A DNA stretch of 56,067 nt from Bacteroidales bacterium (GCA_022768005.1 JALEMF010000065.1:1-56067), one strand, 5' to 3'. Numbered from the stretch's first letter, positions 1,199 to 33,885 are shown. Translations and numbers: made by a program. Notes: generated by a model from the sequence alone, not told the origin.

Positions 1199-1314
1199 AC
1201 GGTGAATAAAGAAACTATCATTATTAACAACAAATAAACCACATAAAACATATAGACGGAGGAACCTGAAAATCCGGAAATAGAGTAAGGAAAACTTTCA
1301 AAATAAAAATATTT

Positions 1315-8139: not shown

Positions 8140-10032
8140 TTATTTAATAATCACTTTAGTTTCAGTACCGTCAGGACAGAAATTAATCAGATACAAATGG
8201 CTGTTAATATATCCTTCCATACCTTCAGGACTTACAATATTAAATCCGGTCTGAATACCTTCGAATCCGTCTTCCTCAACTTCACCTCTGAGGTACTTGA
8301 TGAGGAACGTAGCTGCATCGTATCCTACTATACTTTGCACAGGAACTGTCTCATGCATATTACTTCCGTACCACTGCTTGTACTCATCACGGAACTGACG
8401 TACTCTTTCATCATCGGAAGAAATGTAAAACCTACTGTATATGGAAGCATTCAGTCCGTGAAGCTGTTCAAGATAGTCACTACGGAACGTTACCCATTCC
8501 GGATAACCGAACACTGTGACATTTTCAGGATTTACAGCCGTACTGCGAAGAGTTTTCAGCGCCGGAGCAAATTTTGCAAACTCTGTTCTCAACCCTGACA
8601 CAGGAATGAACACGTAAGCAGAGTCTGTTGTATTGAAATCATCTAAATTGTCTTTTCCCAAGAAACTCCGGAAAGCAATTTCATGATAACTTACTCCTGC
8701 GTCTGACAAACGCTCTTTTAACCCGCTTACAAAATCCGACTTGTCAGCATTACCGTCAATTCGGGCTATAAATACGGGAACATAGCCCTCATACTTCTGC
8801 ATAAACATCTGTATAGCCTTGTCATACATCTGTTTACGCGGAATATTTGCTTGAATTACGGATACATTTGACACATTGCTCGAGTCCTTGACAGCAAACA
8901 AGTTCAGGATTTTCGCATCAGGTGCAATCTCTGAAGCCTGTGAAATGATATATTTCATCTGCGGAATATTGTCTGAAGTAATGATAATGTCCTGGTTCTC
9001 TGAAATATACGTTTTAACAGAATCATTACTTACAGCACTGTCATACGCTTCGATTTTTATTCGTGAACCACTATGACTCTGCTTCTCAACACCAATCAAG
9101 AAGCCTCGATAAAACTCAGTGTAAAGTTGAGAATGTTTGTTGGCGGATTTATCCTCAAGTGAGAAAGGCAACATCAAGGCTATTGTAGTATCATCTTTAA
9201 GCTGAGCAACGTCCTCGACGGCTATAGGCACGGCACACTCCGAAATTCTCTTTTCCGAATCAATAAGCGACTGAGACACCGGTATTGTAATCAAAGCCCC
9301 GGGCACAAATTCTGAAAAACTCAACTGCGGATTAGCCTTCAATATATCTATCTCATTCAAGTCGTATTCTTGAGCGATACTTTCAATGGTTTCACCATCT
9401 TTCATTATGTACTTGATAGTGCCGTCAGAAACATTTACAGGAATTGTTTCGAGAGTATCTTTGCTGACTTCTTCTATTTCCTTCACGTCTTCCTTAACCT
9501 CTTCACGGACAGGAACCGCCGGTACAGGCGCAACCGTAACAACCTCTTTTTCAGGGATATCTATAGTTTTTTTCTCTGCTGCAACTATTTGCTCAGTAAC
9601 GCCTTCCGCTTTTTGAACAGGAATCGCAAGAGTTTCGCCCTTATTAATGCCATCTGAAGCAGTAGGATTAAAATCAATAAGACGGTCCACGGATATGCCG
9701 TATTTTTGAGCAATACCGTAAACAGTCTCGTGCGAACCCACCTTGTGAGAAATCACATAATACCCATTCTTGATTTTAGCATCGTATGAAACAGGGACAG
9801 TAAGCACTGTTCCCGCCTGCAAACCGTCAGCAGCATTTGGATTATATTTCAAAATATCTTTTCTCGGGAGTCCCATTTTCACAGAAAGCTCGTAAATAAA
9901 CTCGTTTTTCTGCGCTACGTAATAATAGTACGCCTTACCATTTATCTTTTTTACCGGCAAATCCAGAGCAAATGCCCCGAGGCAACACAGAAAAGCTGCC
10001 GTAGCCGTAACAATCGCTTTTGTCAATTTCAT
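8140..10032 (-). CDS. LysM-repeat protein fused to a periplasmic-binding-protein-like domain
   Basis: 630 aa. Signal peptide, three LysM-like repeats (e.g. HKVGSHETVYGIAQKYGISVDRLIDFNP) and a large PBP type-1-like C-terminal domain. Confidence 0.75.
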   Translation of the reverse strand: MKLTKAIVTATAAFLCCLGAFALDLPVKKINGKAYYYYVAQKNEFIYELSVKMGLPRKDILKYNPNAADGLQAGTVLTVPVSYDAKIKNGYYVISHKVGSHETVYGIAQKYGISVDRLIDFNPTASDGINKGETLAIPVQKAEGVTEQIVAAEKKTIDIPEKEVVTVAPVPAVPVREEVKEDVKEIEEVSKDTLETIPVNVSDGTIKYIMKDGETIESIAQEYDLNEIDILKANPQLSFSEFVPGALITIPVSQSLIDSEKRISECAVPIAVEDVAQLKDDTTIALMLPFSLEDKSANKHSQLYTEFYRGFLIGVEKQSHSGSRIKIEAYDSAVSNDSVKTYISENQDIIITSDNIPQMKYIISQASEIAPDAKILNLFAVKDSSNVSNVSVIQANIPRKQMYDKAIQMFMQKYEGYVPVFIARIDGNADKSDFVSGLKERLSDAGVSYHEIAFRSFLGKDNLDDFNTTDSAYVFIPVSGLRTEFAKFAPALKTLRSTAVNPENVTVFGYPEWVTFRSDYLEQLHGLNASIYSRFYISSDDERVRQFRDEYKQWYGSNMHETVPVQSIVGYDAATFLIKYLRGEVEEDGFEGIQTGFNIVSPEGMEGYINSHLYLINFCPDGTETKVIIK

Positions 10033-12969: not shown

Positions 12970-13002
12970 AAGTGGCATAGCGGAAACCGGTATGCCACTT
13001 TT
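12970..13002 (+). terminator. intrinsic terminator
   Basis: Perfect 10-bp stem aagtggcata/tatgccactt followed by TT, 41 nt after the stop. Confidence 0.7.
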
Positions 13003-13006
13003 AATA

Positions 13007-13015
13007 TATATCACA
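13007..13015. repeat. left target-site duplication TATATCACA of element copy A
   Basis: Identical 9-mer at 13390..13398, directly abutting the other element end. Confidence 0.8.
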
Positions 13016-13389
13016 CACGGCTATTTCATTTAAAGTGGAAGAAATTGATTTGTTTTTATAAATGAAAGCAAGTAAAAGTTATCATCAGGGAGCCTCGGCG
13101 AGGCTCGGCTGTAAGTAACACCGTATAAGCACGTAAGTGCGCCATGCGGTGAAAGAATACCTCAATCTACATTCGCACATCGGGGATGTGCGGTCTGTGG
13201 TAGATGCTTTGTGTTTTGGTTATATTTTCACAGACCGAACCTCCACGAGGTTCGTTATATGTTGACGTTTCTATCTCAGGGTGGCGCACTATGTGCTTAC
13301 CCTGAGTTACTTACAGCCGAAAGCCTCCGACTTTCCTTGATAATGTCTTTTTACTCACTCTATTATATATTTTAAATGAATGAGCCGTG
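13016..13389 (+). mobile_element. foldback MITE-like non-autonomous element, copy A (374 bp)
   Basis: Terminal inverted repeats CACGGCTATTTCATTTAAA and (reverse complement) CACGGCTCATTCATTTAAA. Flanked by a perfect 9-bp direct repeat, with no ORF. The two arms are about 70 percent self-complementary around a central hairpin at 13191..13237. Confidence 0.75.
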
Positions 13390-13398
13390 TATATCACA
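13390..13398. repeat. right target-site duplication TATATCACA of element copy A
   Basis: Identical to 13007..13015. Confidence 0.8.
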
Positions 13399-13441
13399 AA
13401 AACAATATCAATTTTTGTTTGTATATTACGATATAAATTGA

Positions 13442-13449
13442 TAGTTTTG
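13442..13449 (+). promoter_or_regulatory. -7 box TAGTTTTG
   Basis: Lies 59 nt upstream of the ATG at 13508. Confidence 0.5.
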
Positions 13450-13507: not shown

Positions 13508-13897
13508 ATGAAAAAGTCAATTTTCTACAGCCTATTTGTATTTGCAATGGCTGTTATCGCAGTCGGTTTCGCATCATGCAGCGATGATGACGATCCTTAT
13601 TTCTACACATTCCAACTCGCATCAGAGAACTTAACCGGAGGTAGCGAAGATGCTATGGACTTGGACATTTCGCTCGTTGAAAACGCTGTAACTCAAGAAT
13701 TCAACGGCAAAGTAGTAGCAATTAAAGGTAGCAAAGACGCTTGCGACAAGGAAGCAATTTCACGCTTCAACAAAGCATGTGAATCAGTTACACTCAAAGG
13801 TGGCTGGAAAGGTGATTTCACTTATACACTTTTCATCACCGGTGACAAAGGCATGACTCAACAGATTGCCAACAAGAAATTCACGATGAGTGAATAA
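13508..13897 (+). CDS. small surface-type lipoprotein, paralogue 1 of 4
   Basis: 129 aa. Lipobox VGFASC followed by SDDDD, and a shared motif RFNKACESVTLKGGWKG. Confidence 0.7.
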   Translation: MKKSIFYSLFVFAMAVIAVGFASCSDDDDPYFYTFQLASENLTGGSEDAMDLDISLVENAVTQEFNGKVVAIKGSKDACDKEAISRFNKACESVTLKGGWKGDFTYTLFITGDKGMTQQIANKKFTMSE

Positions 13898-13928
13898 TAA
13901 AAATAAGCCACTCCTATAGCTAATAATC

Positions 13929-14332
13929 ATGAAGACAAAATTGTATTACACATTTCTTGCACTTTGCATCGCTATCTGCACGATTGGTTTCTCTCATGTA
14001 GCAAGAACGACGACAAATATGCAAACATCTACAATTACGGATTTTCAAAAAACGGATTCGTAGGAGGTGATGAAGACGCATACTCGGCAGACGTAGAACT
14101 CGTATATCAAACAGTCTATAAAGAATTCAAAGATGATATGGTGGTACTCTACGGTGATCAAGACAAATGTGACCAAGAGGCAATCACACGCTTTAACAAA
14201 GCATGCGACAGAGTACAACTCAAAGGAGGCTGGTACGGAAAATTTAATTATTCTCTTTACAAGACCATTGACGATGAGACAAAGCGACCAACCGTTATTA
14301 TAGCAGACAGAGTATTTGAAGTTGCCGAATAA
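13929..14332 (+). pseudogene. small lipoprotein paralogue 2, frameshifted between the signal peptide and the lipobox
   Basis: ATG 13929 encodes MKTKLYYTFLALCIAICTIGF, which resembles the paralogue 3 signal peptide, then stops at 14061. The mature part (SCSKNDD...RFNKACDRVQLKGGWYG) is in another frame (ORF 13964..14332). The frames switch inside tctctc at 13990..13995. Confidence 0.6.
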
Positions 14333-14358
14333 TAACCAAATAAAATTCGAAAAATAAA

Positions 14359-14760
14359 ATGAGAACAAAACTGTATTACGTATTTCTTGCGCTTTGTGTA
14401 TCACTTTGCGCACTCGGCATTACATCTTGTGATAATAATGATGGTCCGGGCGCAAATGTATATACCATCGGCTTAACAGGCTCAAGCAGTCACGGCAACT
14501 ATCTTGCTTTCAAAGCAGACGTCCAAACTATTGAATCAGCAGTAGTTGCTGAATTCGGCGGATTGTCATTTGAAATCCAAGGCAAAAGCGACAGCGCGGA
14601 TAAAGAAGTTAAAAATCGCTTTGAAAAAGCAATGCAAAACGTAACCCTTAAAGGTGGCTGGAAAGGCTATGTTATTTATGATGTAACTAAATACACCACA
14701 TCAGGATCAGGTTCAAAGGATATAGCAAGCAAAAAAATCGTATCACCTGACGGTGAATAA
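14359..14760 (+). CDS. small lipoprotein, paralogue 3 of 4
   Basis: 133 aa. Lipobox LGITSC and motif RFEKAMQNVTLKGGWKG. Confidence 0.7.
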   Translation: MRTKLYYVFLALCVSLCALGITSCDNNDGPGANVYTIGLTGSSSHGNYLAFKADVQTIESAVVAEFGGLSFEIQGKSDSADKEVKNRFEKAMQNVTLKGGWKGYVIYDVTKYTTSGSGSKDIASKKIVSPDGE

Positions 14761-19251: not shown

Positions 19252-19325
19252 TGACTCGTACAGGATTCAAACCTGTAACCTTCTGATCCGTAGTCAGATG
19301 CTCTATTCAGTTGAGCTAACGAGCC
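19252..19325 (-). tRNA. tRNA-Arg (anticodon ACG)
   Basis: The reverse complement folds as a cloverleaf: acceptor GGCTCGT/ACGAGTC, anticodon stem TCTGA/TCAGA with loop CTACGGA, T-arm ACAGG-TTTGAAT-CCTGT. Length 74 nt. Confidence 0.93.
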
Positions 19326-19364
19326 CTATGAACAAAAATGTATGCACAAACAATTTTCCTTTTG

Positions 19365-19438
19365 TGACTCGTACAGGATTCAAACCTGTAACCTTCTGAT
19401 CCGTAGTCAGATGCTCTATTCAGTTGAGCTAACGAGCC
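19365..19438 (-). tRNA. tRNA-Arg (anticodon ACG), identical tandem copy
   Basis: Same 74-nt sequence as 19252..19325, with a 39-nt spacer. Confidence 0.93.
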
Positions 19439-19470: not shown

Positions 19471-19656
19471 AGAATAATTTTTTAAATAGCAATAATTTTC
19501 TCAAAAAAAATCATCATCAAAAAAGAAAGAAGCCGAGAACGAAGTGAAAAATCATCAACAACAAAAAAGAATAAAAAAATTCCATTCAATTTTTTACTTT
19601 TAGATAAAAGTGCGGTCTTAGAAGTGAATTAAATCAATAACAGAGGCAAAAAAGAG

Positions 19657-33152: not shown

Positions 33153-33177
33153 TCATTTTACAAGATATCAAACTAAA

Positions 33178-33210
33178 AGCCGCATCGCAAAATCCGATGC
33201 GGCTTTTTCA
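33178..33210 (+). terminator. intrinsic terminator
   Basis: gccgcatcg-caaaatc-cgatgcggc hairpin followed by T5. Confidence 0.8.
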
Positions 33211-33417
33211 TTTATAATTGTCTGAATATTTCAGAATTAAGGACAATGCCAATATGGTCACAGTAGGAATTGCATACGATATGAATTGGGGAAAATCTTA
33301 TAAGACAGGAAAAAGAGGATTAATAATTCAGACAACGTAGATGGTATAGTAAAATAAAAGAAGCGCTGATAAAAAATACTGAATCAAAAAGTGTGTGTAG
33401 ATTCTTCTGTCTATGGG

Positions 33418-33426
33418 CAAATTCGA
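33418..33426. repeat. target-site duplication CAAATTCGA of element copy B
   Basis: 8/9 match to CAAATTCAA at 33827..33835, directly abutting the other element end. Confidence 0.65.
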
Positions 33427-33826
33427 CACGGCTCTTTCATTTAAGAATATACAGTAGAGTTAGTAAGAAGACAACTTTTTCAGGGGAACTCTGAAACATT
33501 CGATTGTAAGCAACTCAGGGTAAGCACTTTGTAAGCCACTCTGAGATAGCCATATATATTGTGGGCGCACCTCTGAAACAGTGCGTTCTGTAAAAGAATC
33601 AGGATTTTTTCATTAAATATTTATTACAGACCGTGCATCTCCGAAGCACGATTATATCGGAAGTTTGCCTATCACCGGGTGGCGCACTAAATGCTTACGC
33701 ATTAAGTGCTTACCGGGTGTTTCTTACAGCCGAGCCTCGCCGAGGCTCCCTGATGATACAGTCTTTACCTGCTTTCATTTATAAAAAATTATATCAATAT
33801 CTTCTACTTTAAATGAAAGAGCTGCG
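33427..33826 (-). mobile_element. foldback MITE-like non-autonomous element, copy B (400 bp), inverted relative to copy A
   Basis: Ends CACGGCTCTTTCATTTAA and (reverse complement) CGCAGCTCTTTCATTTAAA. Its reverse complement is collinear with copy A and includes an identical 35-mer (33723..33757 vs 13081..13115). No ORF. Confidence 0.72.
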
Positions 33827-33835
33827 CAAATTCAA
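33827..33835. repeat. target-site duplication CAAATTCAA of element copy B
   Basis: 8/9 match to 33418..33426. Confidence 0.65.
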
Positions 33836-33877: not shown

Positions 33878-33885
33878 TAACTTTG
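33878..33885 (+). promoter_or_regulatory. -7 box TAACTTTG
   Basis: Lies 37 nt upstream of the ATG at 33923. Confidence 0.55.

What the first reader, a model, noticed from the sequence alone, without database searches (positions are those of the whole stretch)
33418..33835. Second, diverged copy of the same element (400 bp) in opposite orientation, with its own 9-bp duplication
Between the dcp terminator and the phoH promoter, the reverse complement of 33427..33826 is collinear with copy A. The termini correspond (CGCAGCTCTTTCATTTAAAG vs CACGGCTATTTCATTTAAAG), as do the ttataaatgaaagca.gtaaa block, an identical 35-mer and the same order of hairpin modules. It is flanked by CAAATTCGA and CAAATTCAA (8/9). 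Two independent insertions each have a different flanking duplication of the same length. This argues for transposition rather than segmental duplication. Both sit just after an intrinsic terminator and 37-60 nt ahead of a TAnnTTTG promoter box, so they may prefer, or be tolerated only in, terminator-promoter gaps.
Basis: partly seen in the sequence, partly recalled or inferred. Interest (0 to 1): 0.7.

Follow-up and report, generated by a model that had tools for sequence, protein, structure and literature searches.

The report
Promoter-seeking miniature transposon, second copy
The 400-bp element upstream of phoH is a real second copy of a small non-coding transposon that borrows the ends of an ISAs1-family insertion sequence of gut Bacteroidales, and elements with these ends insert about 52 bp upstream of a gene's promoter box far more often than chance allows.

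Summary
Window 33427-33826 is a 400-bp element with 19-bp inverted ends, flanked by CAAATTCGA/CAAATTCAA (8/9). It is collinear end to end with copy A (13016-13389, opposite strand, perfect 9-bp duplication TATATCACA).

It belongs to a dispersed family. Further full, truncated and rearranged copies occur at other loci in related Bacteroidales metagenome contigs. One insertion is polymorphic between strains, and the window holds the empty site at 19533-19541.

The element has no gene. Its consensus terminus, CACGGCTCTTTCATTTAAA, is identical to the ends of 1.53-kb ISAs1-family insertion sequences of Phocaeicola, Bacteroides and Odoribacter. Seven located copies of those ISs have perfect 9-bp duplications. 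Only the ends are shared, so this is a MITE mobilised in trans, not a deletion derivative.

The distance from an element tip to an outward-facing TAnnTTTG box is 51 nt for B and 52 nt for A. It is exactly 52 nt at 8 of 58 independent IS/MITE tips elsewhere (11 at 51-54), with minor modes at 41-42 and 62. For the ISs, only the transposase-proximal end faces the promoter. This points to promoter-anchored target choice, for which I found no prior report.

Copy B is present in all eight strain contigs examined, has a degraded tip, and is probably immobile.

The parts
33418..33426 (.). Left copy of the 9-bp target-site duplication (CAAATTCGA)
   Evidence: It matches 33827-33835 at 8/9 positions, exactly at the element boundaries.
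33427..33826 (+). MITE copy B (400 bp, no gene)
   Evidence: It is collinear with copy A and five other full copies. It scores 404 bits with an nhmmer profile built from the seven-copy alignment, which includes B itself. Its ORFs are at most 59 aa. It has no Rfam match.
33427..33445 (+). Left terminal inverted repeat, CACGGCTCTTTCATTTAAG
   Evidence: It has 1 mismatch to the family and IS consensus CACGGCTCTTTCATTTAAA. It is identical to the right end of the ISAs1-family IS in L059.
33808..33826 (-). Right terminal inverted repeat (reverse complement CGCAGCTCTTTCATTTAAA), degraded at tip positions 2 and 4
   Evidence: It has 2 mismatches to the consensus, both in the outermost 4 bases.
33764..33826 (.). 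Right subterminal block: an inner, oppositely oriented TIR-like copy (TGCTTTCATTTATAAAA) plus the TIR itself
   Evidence: It is near-invariant in all full copies. The pattern built on it retrieved 9 metagenome loci.
33723..33749 (.). Nearly invariant 27-mer CTTACAGCCGAGCCTCGCCGAGGCTCC, holding the 17-bp palindrome GAGCCTCGCCGAGGCTC (33732-33748)
   Evidence: It is identical in A, B and C, with at most one change in the other full copies. Helix 8 never varies.
33566..33650 (.). Central foldback: hairpin 33566-33585, long-range stem 33586-33631, hairpin 33632-33650
   Evidence: RNAalifold consensus. Five of the six compensatory base-pair changes fall in helices 4 and 6. Coordinates.
33485..33545 (.). 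Left-arm hairpins (33485-33501 and 33514-33545), diverged mirror images of the right-arm hairpins
   Evidence: The arm-to-arm inverted similarity is seen in copy A (I4).
33673..33719 (.). Right-arm long hairpin (helix 7)
   Evidence: 18 pairs, 98% of cells paired, one compensatory pair.
33827..33835 (.). Right copy of the target-site duplication (CAAATTCAA)
33878..33885 (+). Bacteroidetes-type -7 promoter box TAACTTTG of phoH. It starts 51 nt after the element tip and lies 38 nt before the phoH ATG (33923)
   Evidence: phoH is identified by Pfam PF02562 on the called gene.
33175..33207 (+). Intrinsic terminator of the upstream peptidase M3 (dcp) gene, 219 nt before the element. It is not part of the element
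13007..13398 (-). Copy A (13016-13389) with its perfect 9-bp duplication TATATCACA (13007-13015, 13390-13398). A -7 box TAGTTTTG at 13442-13449 starts 52 nt from its tip
19533..19541 (.). Empty target site (CCGAGAACG; CGTTCTCGG on the minus strand) of the strain-polymorphic copy C, upstream of the ECF sigma-factor gene
   Evidence: L010 and L038 carry a copy whose tip abuts this 9-mer, 126 nt upstream of the sigma ATG. The window and the strains whose contigs span the site (L036, L037, L046, L048-L051) lack it.

Best explanation
Copy B is an old copy, now probably immobile, of a 375-400-bp miniature inverted-repeat transposable element (MITE) family. It is present in all eight strain contigs examined. 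The family lives in an uncultured Muribaculaceae species and in at least one related Bacteroidales MAG.

The element encodes nothing. It is a diverged long palindrome: two mirror-image arms of GC-rich hairpin modules around an AT-rich centre, capped by 19-bp terminal inverted repeats. Those repeats are the same as the ends of a clade of 1.53-kb ISAs1-family insertion sequences found in Phocaeicola, Bacteroides and Odoribacter.

Three steps are inferred. A DDE transposase of that clade, supplied in trans, bound the two ends. It cut the element out or copied it. It then joined it to staggered nicks 9 bp apart, which on repair gave the 9-bp duplication CAAATTC(G/A)A.

Target choice is not random. 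Elements with these ends are inserted so that a tip lies about 52 nt upstream of the first base of a TAnnTTTG -7 promoter box. That places the tip near -60 relative to the start site (my estimate, from memory of where the box sits), at the upstream edge of the expected RNA polymerase footprint. Minor modes fall at about 42 and 62 nt, one helical turn either way. Copy B landed in this way upstream of the phoH promoter.

What is shown:
- the anatomy of the element;
- the family and one insertion polymorphism;
- identity of the termini with ISAs1-family ISs;
- 9-bp duplications;
- the spacing statistics and the orientation rule for the ISs.

What is inferred:
- trans-mobilisation;
- that the spacing reflects transposase targeting (a tether to promoter-bound polymerase or sigma factor, or a distance-reading of the motif) rather than selection;
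- any effect on phoH expression.
For: Anatomy and family:
- A and B are collinear.
- Seven full copies align over 407 columns, and the terminal repeats and hairpin blocks are conserved.
- Other copies are L010:747-1145, L014:3968-4344, L015:8222-8616 and L016:5168-5561, plus truncated or rearranged copies in L011-L019.
- Copies at different loci in different genomes are 95% (A/e14) and 93% (C/e16a) identical, while their flanks are unrelated.

Mobility:
- Duplications are 9/9 for A and 8/9 for B.
- Copy C is present in L010 and L038, where the sigma protein is identical to the window's. It is absent in the window and in the contigs that span the site, and homology breaks exactly at the tip.

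Link to the IS:
- The exact 19-mer terminus occurs in 18 viral-collection loci. Two terminus variants add 35 new loci (37 matching stretches, two already held).
- L059:285-1821 is a 1537-bp element with that terminus at both ends and a perfect duplication TATTTTCTA.
- Its single ORF matches NCBIfam NF033564, ISAs1 family transposase, at 235 bits against a cut-off of 70. It also matches Pfam DDE_Tnp_1 and DDE_Tnp_1_assoc.
- Seven located IS copies with both ends have perfect 9-bp duplications; three of these sit at the same target sequence, so they are five distinct sites. One more copy matches at 8/9.
- Relatives at 56-67% protein identity keep the terminus.
- Hosts named by sources are Phocaeicola, Bacteroides, Odoribacter and B. 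stercoris.
- About 180-bp MITEs with the same termini and perfect 9-bp duplications also exist.

Targeting:
- Tip-to-box distances for the 400-bp family are 50, 51, 52, 53, 42, 62, 62 and 69.
- At 58 independent IS/MITE tips there are 19 outward-facing boxes within 0-100 nt. Eight are at exactly 52, two at 53, one at 54, two at 62 and two at 41-42 (p about 2e-11 against a uniform spread).
- Only 4 opposite-strand boxes occur, and they do not cluster.
- Of crudely defined intergenic positions in the window, 3.5% have such a box at 50-62 nt.
- Flanks between tip and box are unrelated in sequence, and the duplication lies inside the 52 nt. The promoter therefore belongs to the target, not to the element.
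- Some targets are tRNA promoters.
- For the ISs, the promoter-facing end is the transposase-proximal end wherever the transposase orientation could be read (L059, L061, L100, L109; by end-sequence type also L064, L069, L070). The right-end type had a box at 0-100 nt in 0 of about 15 tips.
Against: - No transposase gene of this clade is in the window or in any fetched locus that carries the 400-bp MITE. No Muribaculaceae-resident IS with these ends was found.
- B is present in all 8 strain contigs examined, and its right tip has two mismatches. There is no sign that B itself still moves.
- Three full copies (C, e14, e16a) show no convincing duplication: 5/9, 5/9 and 2/9.
- The right flank of C belongs to another locus, through recombination or assembly chimera.
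- The spacing rule is a tendency, not a law. 38 of 57 unique tips have no box within 140 nt. The Odoribacter-type IS copies inside phage genomes and the B. stercoris-type copies do not follow it.
- TAnnTTTG is a motif match, not a mapped start site.
- The IS tips come largely from a 'viral' contig collection, which is a biased sample.
- The interior of the MITE has no similarity to the IS, so its origin is unknown.
Confidence: 0.8

Rival explanations
1. The elements insert more or less at random in intergenic DNA. The position next to promoters is what purifying selection leaves: insertions that break a promoter, a gene or a terminator are lost.
For: Intergenic regions here are short, so the tolerated space is small. 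All copies are intergenic. Many tips, 38 of 57, have no nearby box. Copies A and B are old and were present in every strain contig examined, so selection has had time to act.
Against: Selection sets a minimum distance, not a spike. Eight independent tips lie at exactly 52 nt and 11 at 51-54. Side modes fall one helical turn away, at 41-42 and 62. There is a strict end bias for the ISs, with 0 of about 15 right ends facing a box. The same spacing appears in different hosts and for three unrelated element bodies: the IS, the 180-bp MITE and the 400-bp MITE.
Confidence: 0.1
2. The conserved hairpin core is the functional unit, and the transposon ends are only its vehicle. The core could be a structured RNA or a DNA binding-site cassette, for example an operator for a dimeric protein at the 17-bp palindrome, or a transcription insulator. 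On this view copy B has been co-opted to regulate phoH.
For: The 27-mer around GAGCCTCGCCGAGGCTC is almost invariant, while the copies are otherwise 69-80% identical. 96.5% of hairpin cells are paired and 6 pairs show compensatory change, more than in all or nearly all of 500 shuffles (0-1 reached the observed values). B folds with z = -6.4. A solo hairpin module occurs outside any element (L015:8846-8925). A and B are retained in all strains examined.
Against: There is no Rfam match. The element sits upstream of the promoter and, for A, after a terminator, so it is probably little transcribed. Both orientations occur relative to the neighbouring gene. Compensatory changes rest on only about four independent lineages. 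They can also arise in DNA palindromes by template-switch correction, without any selection on RNA. No conserved promoter or terminator was found inside the element.
Confidence: 0.1
3. The two window copies arose by segmental duplication or recombination of a local repeat, not by transposition.
For: Some family copies have no matching flanking duplication. Copy C has a flank from another locus, so recombination between copies does occur.
Against: Similarity stops exactly at the inverted termini. A and B have different 9-bp duplications. The termini are those of a transposase-encoding IS with the same duplication length. Near-identical copies lie in unrelated flanks in other genomes.
Confidence: 0.01
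4. It is a palindrome-type repeat mobilised by a tyrosine (HUH) transposase: a REP/BIME element moved by a RAYT, or an IS200/IS605-derived PATE.
For: The interior is made of GC-rich hairpin modules that also occur in rearranged and solo forms.
Against: Those elements have no terminal inverted repeats and make no target duplication. Here both are present, and both match a DDE-type ISAs1 IS.
Confidence: 0.02

Closest known systems
ISAs1-family insertion sequences (DDE transposase with N-terminal DDE_Tnp_1_assoc domain; ISfinder family)
   Same: The consensus 19-bp terminus is identical (CACGGCTCTTTCATTTAAA). The 9-bp target duplication is the same, measured here on 7 IS copies. From memory of ISfinder, the family range is 8-10 bp. 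Kirsch et al. (PMC10592638) report that one ISAs1-family IS of gut Bacteroidia prefers intergenic sites.
   Different: The element has no transposase, is 400 bp rather than 1.53 kb, and its interior is unrelated to the IS. The fixed ~52-nt spacing to the -7 box and the end bias were not in any paper I could find.
Bacterial MITEs such as Correia/NEMIS (Neisseria), RUP and BOX (Streptococcus pneumoniae), ERIC, and the Porphyromonas gingivalis MITEs noted in PMC2575886 and PMC5771137
   Same: All are short, non-coding and multi-copy, with inverted termini and a target duplication, found in intergenic DNA, able to fold into stable hairpins, and moved in trans by an IS transposase. Like BOX, this family is modular, with rearranged and truncated variants.
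   Different: No sequence relation was tested or seen. The partner is an ISAs1-family IS. Correia elements are typically co-transcribed with genes and carry promoters or RNase III sites (from memory). This family sits upstream of promoters at a set distance.
Position-specific 'safe-haven' integration of eukaryotic retrotransposons (yeast Ty3 at Pol III start sites; Dictyostelium TRE5-A about 48 bp upstream of tRNA genes) and bacterial site-directed transposons (Tn7 at attTn7; IS1397 in REP sequences)
   Same: Insertion occurs at a fixed distance from a transcription signal, with no target sequence consensus at the cut site. Some targets here are tRNA promoters. The 10-bp side modes suggest a protein tether on one face of the helix.
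   Different: These are different enzymes and kingdoms. Here no targeting protein or interaction has been shown, and the comparison is by behaviour only, from memory of that literature.

Membership tests
MITE (non-autonomous DDE transposon) | Short, with no coding capacity | tested here: met
   The element is 400 bp and its longest ORF is 59 aa. The only database relative of that ORF is a spurious ORF in another copy.
MITE (non-autonomous DDE transposon) | Terminal inverted repeats | tested here: met
   The 19-bp termini have 1 and 2 mismatches to the consensus and are conserved in all full copies.
MITE (non-autonomous DDE transposon) | Target-site duplication of fixed length | tested here: met
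   B is 8/9, A is 9/9, and e15b is 6/9 (8 of 9 by my own reading if a 1-nt deletion is allowed). Across the family it is inconclusive: C, e14 and e16a show none.
MITE (non-autonomous DDE transposon) | Multiple dispersed copies | tested here: met
   There are 2 copies in the window, at least 4 further full copies and about 8 partial ones at other loci. A whole-genome copy number was not obtainable.
MITE (non-autonomous DDE transposon) | Presence/absence polymorphism at a site | tested here: met
   This holds for copy C at the sigma-factor locus, with the left junction only. It does not hold for B or A, which were present in all strain contigs examined.
MITE (non-autonomous DDE transposon) | Termini shared with an autonomous IS | tested here: met
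   The exact 19-mer forms the ends of L059:285-1821 and of related ISs.
ISAs1-family derivative | The partner transposase belongs to the ISAs1 family | tested here: met
   NF033564 at 235 bits against a cut-off of 70, plus PF01609 and PF13808.
ISAs1-family derivative | Interior derived from the IS by internal deletion | tested here: not met
   The nhmmer profile of the MITE finds nothing in the IS-bearing loci L056-L073, which include the reference IS L059. Only about 19-20 bp at each end are shared.
ISAs1-family derivative | Cognate transposase present in the same genome | not testable with these tools
   tblastn found none in the 56-kb window or in the fetched MITE-bearing loci.
REP/BIME or IS200/IS605-type palindromic elements | No terminal inverted repeats and no target duplication; moved by a Y1/HUH transposase | tested here: not met
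   Terminal repeats and a 9-bp duplication are present, and the partner enzyme is a DDE transposase.
Any curated RNA family (Rfam 15) | Match at or near the gathering score | tested here: not met
   There is no hit on either copy at gathering thresholds. The only hits at E <= 10 are chance-level microRNA and sRNA matches.

The most novel reading that the evidence does not exclude
A clade of ISAs1-family transposases in gut Bacteroidales, together with the MITEs that ride on them, selects targets by reading the promoter itself. The reading is most likely through RNA polymerase holoenzyme or sigma factor bound at the TAnnTTTG -7 box. Integration then occurs at the upstream edge of the polymerase footprint: the tip lies 52 nt from the box, with alternatives one helical turn away, and the transposase-proximal end faces the promoter. 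This would be a bacterial counterpart of the Pol III-tethered 'safe-haven' integration of Ty3 and TRE5-A. It would make these elements natural markers, and possible modifiers, of promoter-upstream regions across Bacteroidales.
Probability: 0.5. Interest if true: 0.8.

Novelty: new variant of a known kind. Interest (0 to 1): 0.66.

Why it matters
A MITE in an uncultured gut bacterium is ordinary by itself. What is not ordinary is that elements carrying these ends sit at a single-nucleotide-sharp distance from the Bacteroidetes -7 promoter box. This holds in several genera and for three unrelated element bodies, with helical side modes and a fixed orientation for the autonomous IS.

If the transposase does this, it is a simple bacterial system for studying how a DDE transposase is steered by the transcription machinery. 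It would also explain the reported intergenic preference of an ISAs1-family IS in the gut microbiota. It would give a sequence-only way to flag active promoters in uncultured Bacteroidales, and it suggests a programmable 'insert just upstream of a promoter' tool.

For annotation, it explains two long, structured intergenic regions in this genome, upstream of phoH and upstream of a lipoprotein gene cluster.

Tried and rejected
- My one genome-contig scan used TATCATCAGGGN{14,26}CGGCTGTAAG and returned only a chance coding hit in Lunatimonas. The third copy later showed that the TATCATCAGGG part of the pattern is not conserved. The scan was therefore wasted and says little about distribution.
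- Three viral-contig scans with internal or paired-end patterns of the 400-bp element found nothing.
- blastn of copy B against PLSDB plasmids and GenBank phages found nothing.
- Rfam gave nothing at gathering or permissive thresholds.
- I looked for an empty site for B. All 8 contigs with the identical PhoH carry B. In related species (PhoH at 90% identity or more, from pig gut and an NCBI Muribaculaceae MAG) the element is absent, but the upstream neighbour is OmpA instead of dcp. That is not a clean empty site.
- I looked for an empty site for A. All 10 strain contigs carry it.
- I tried to get both junctions of the polymorphic copy C. Contigs break inside the element or in the duplicated tRNAs. 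On the tRNA side, L052 shows a breakpoint at the other edge of the same 8-mer without a MITE. This is unresolved.
- I looked for a Muribaculaceae host for the IS. Named neighbours or cluster members were Phocaeicola, Bacteroides, B. stercoris and Odoribacter only.
- I scanned for a promoter or terminator conserved inside the element and found none.
- Literature searches for ISAs1-derived MITEs in Bacteroidales, or for promoter-distance targeting, found only the intergenic preference noted in PMC10592638.

Full report
**1. The observation**

A 400-bp segment, 33427-33826, begins CACGGCTCTTTCATTTAAG and ends CTTTAAATGAAAGAGCTGCG. It is flanked by CAAATTCGA (33418-33426) and CAAATTCAA (33827-33835), an 8/9 match exactly at the boundaries.

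The repeat finder links it to 12999-13346 as three collinear inverted segments. One is a 57-nt block at 91% complementarity that holds the identical 35-mer. A pairwise alignment of B's reverse complement with 12990-13420 is collinear from tip to tip and loses similarity exactly at the tips. Identity is 68.7% counting gaps.

Copy A is 13016-13389, with a perfect 9-bp duplication TATATCACA. Only these two copies are in the window.

Two details need correcting. The dcp terminator (33175-33207) lies 219 nt before B, so only A is 'just after' a terminator. The distance to the TAnnTTTG box is 51 nt for B and 52 nt for A, measured from tip to box start.

**2. Organism and fixation**

The neighbouring PhoH protein belongs to a 90%-identity cluster in which the only named member comes from a Muribaculaceae MAG. 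The window is 42% G+C.

Eight metagenome contigs that encode the identical PhoH all carry B, at 98-99.6% identity over the intergenic region. Ten contigs carry A.

Related species with PhoH at 90% identity or more lack the element upstream of phoH. They also have a different upstream neighbour, so this is not a clean empty site.

**3. A family, and mobility**

I translated a spurious 59-aa ORF of B and searched the protein collection. This found one relative, which led to contig L010 carrying a third copy, C (747-1145).

- C's left flank is 97% identical to window 20277-19532. Homology stops exactly at the element tip.
- L038 encodes a sigma factor identical to the window's and has the same insertion. 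The window and the contigs that span the site lack it.
- Window 19533-19541 is therefore an empty site for a strain-polymorphic insertion.
- C's right flank belongs to another locus that also holds a copy in L018. The cause is recombination or an assembly chimera, so C's duplication cannot be read.

A metagenome scan with a pattern from the conserved right end returned nine loci.

- Full copies are at L014:3968-4344, L015:8222-8616 (the same locus as L017) and L016:5168-5561.
- Truncated and rearranged copies are also present.
- Proteins next to these copies are named only 'Bacteroidales bacterium' MAG.
- Copies at unrelated loci in different genomes are 95% (A/e14) and 93% (C/e16a) identical.
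- Duplications are clear for A and B, partial for e15b (6/9), and absent for C, e14 and e16a.

**4. Anatomy**

Seven full copies align over 407 columns.

- The element is a diverged long palindrome. Each arm has a terminal repeat, a subterminal block, a short GC hairpin, a CTGTAAG-AAC linker, a long hairpin and a further hairpin. The arms meet at an AT-rich centre.
- B folds at -126.8 kcal/mol, z = -6.4.
- In the local hairpins, 96.5% of cells are paired. Six pairs show compensatory change, five of them in the two central hairpins. None or one of 500 shuffles reached the observed values, and all slid controls fall well below them.
- The 27-mer around the 17-bp palindrome GAGCCTCGCCGAGGCTC hardly varies.
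- There is no Rfam match and no conserved internal promoter or terminator.

With about four independent lineages, and with palindromic DNA able to self-correct, I do not read this as proof of an RNA function.

**5. What moves it**

The consensus 19-mer terminus, CACGGCTCTTTCATTTAAA, occurs exactly in 18 loci of the viral-contig collection. Two variants add 35 new loci (37 matching stretches, two already held).

- L059:285-1821 is a 1537-bp element with this terminus at both ends and a perfect duplication TATTTTCTA.
- It has one ORF, which matches NCBIfam 'ISAs1 family transposase' at 235 bits (cut-off 70). It also matches Pfam DDE_Tnp_1 plus DDE_Tnp_1_assoc.
- Seven located IS copies of 1533-1537 bp have perfect 9-bp duplications; three of them sit at the same target sequence, so they are five distinct sites. 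Two more IS loci (L080 and the 1529-bp IS of L110-L117) match at 8/9.
- Relatives at 56-67% protein identity keep the terminus.
- Sources name the hosts as Phocaeicola, Bacteroides, B. stercoris and Odoribacter.
- Elements of about 180 bp with the same termini and perfect 9-bp duplications also exist.
- The 400-bp element shares only the terminal 19-20 bp with the IS. The profile of its body finds nothing in the IS-bearing loci L056-L073.
- No transposase of this clade is in the window or in the loci that carry the 400-bp MITE.

The element is thus a MITE that uses ISAs1-type ends. It is not a deletion derivative. Trans-mobilisation is inferred, and the source of the transposase in Muribaculaceae is not shown.

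**6. Where it lands**

All copies are intergenic. I measured the distance from a tip to the first outward-facing TAnnTTTG.

| Data set | Distances (nt) |
|---|---|
| 400-bp family | A 52, B 51, e14 53, e16a 50, e11 42, C 62, e19a 62, e16b 69 |
| 58 independent IS and short-MITE tips: 19 outward boxes within 0-100 nt | 52 (x8), 53 (x2), 54, 62 (x2), 41, 42, and 16, 33, 82, 100 |
| Same 58 tips, opposite-strand boxes | 4 only, unclustered |

- In the 400-bp family the boxes are followed by an ATG 20-60 nt later.
- The excess at 51-54 nt has p about 2e-11 against a uniform spread.
- Only 3.5% of crudely defined intergenic positions in the window have such a box at 50-62 nt.
- The sequences between tip and box are unrelated. 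The 9-bp duplications show no consensus and lie inside the 52 nt. The promoter therefore belongs to the target.
- Some targets are tRNA promoters.
- For the ISs, the end facing the promoter is the transposase-proximal end wherever orientation could be read. The right-end type had a box within 0-100 nt in 0 of about 15 tips.
- The near-palindromic 400-bp MITE uses either end.
- The rule is not universal. Two thirds of the tips have no nearby box, and some IS subtypes in phage or conjugative-element contexts ignore it.

A sharp spike, helical side modes and an end bias are not what purifying selection alone would produce. I therefore favour promoter-anchored target choice. A likely form is a tether to promoter-bound polymerase at the upstream edge of its footprint. 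That mechanism is inference.

**7. Comparison with what is known**

The kind of element, a bacterial MITE with an IS partner, is well known. I found no description of this family, of ISAs1-derived MITEs in Bacteroidales, or of fixed-distance promoter targeting by an IS. The nearest statement is that an ISAs1-family IS of gut Bacteroidia prefers intergenic loci (PMC10592638).

In behaviour, the closest parallels are Ty3 and TRE5-A integration next to Pol III genes, and bacterial site-directed elements such as Tn7 and IS1397. Those comparisons come from memory, not from a test.

**8. Verdict**

Copy B is an old MITE copy, present in every strain contig examined and probably inert, inserted 51 nt upstream of the phoH -7 box. 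The feature worth following up belongs to the whole group of elements that share these ends: promoter-anchored insertion at about 52 nt.

Noticed in passing
window 19533-19541; L010:735-1185; L038:300-335; L052:3800-3950: The empty site of copy C is also a breakpoint on the tRNA side. L052 matches the window up to ...GAAGCCGAGAAC and then continues with unrelated sequence and no MITE. The 8-mer GTTCTCGG therefore sits at both junctions. This could be a larger insertion with the MITE at one end, or a MITE-mediated inversion.
   Followed up: partly
L057:7571-7750, L068:5943-6120, L066:4834-5013, L073:8913-9083, L056:9966-10146: A second, unrelated MITE type of about 171-181 bp carries the same 19-bp termini. 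Two copies have perfect 9-bp duplications (ATGTTACTA, TATTTTAGC).
   Followed up: partly
L015:6170-6225 and L019:3950-4000: Truncated copies of the 400-bp element are joined to short arrays of a 9-nt unit containing GTCTGAC/GTCGGAC. In L015 the array starts right after the stop codon of a small ORF that reads like an HTH protein (my reading; no domain search was run).
   Followed up: no
L015:8190-8221 and 8617-8680: Copy e15b is inserted inside a tandem array of a ~32-bp unit (TGCAAAATTTGCATTTTAGCGAATTGAGAAGG).
   Followed up: no
L015:8846-8925: A solo hairpin module (GC hairpin plus long hairpin, profile positions 238-331) lies outside any TIR-bounded element, 230 bp from e15b.
   Followed up: no
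L016:7810-8228: A rearranged copy has an extra internal arm and a truncated right terminus, which shows that the hairpin modules are shuffled within the family.
   Followed up: no
window 33198-33216: The 3' half of the dcp terminator stem plus its T tract (TGCGGCTTTTTCATTTATA) matches the element terminus at 15 of 19 positions. About one such hit is expected by chance in the window, and no partner end was found.
   Followed up: partly
window 13508-14760: Three tandem paralogous small ORFs (129, 122 and 133 aa, no Pfam hit on record) lie directly downstream of copy A. They share a 63-nt block at a spacing of 426-428 nt.
   Followed up: no
window 19252-19438: Two identical tRNA genes lie 113 nt apart. 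In some strain contigs the spacing between the flanking genes is 113 nt shorter, consistent with a single copy. Many assemblies break here.
   Followed up: partly
window 1256-1291: Rfam DUF805b RNA motif above the gathering score (42.7 bits).
   Followed up: no
L024:1870-2085 and 2290-2385 (also L025): In a related Muribaculaceae MAG the phoH upstream region holds two different short-unit repeat arrays (AGCTAAAATAGCTA-like and CATAGCATTGCC-like) in place of the MITE.
   Followed up: no
L110-L117 (IS at 933-2461 in L110): A 1529-bp ISAs1-clade IS is fixed at one locus in several NCBI MAGs. A near-consensus box TACCTTTA lies 51 nt from its transposase-proximal tip (my hand count). A relaxed box definition would probably raise the fraction of tips that obey the spacing rule.
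   Followed up: no
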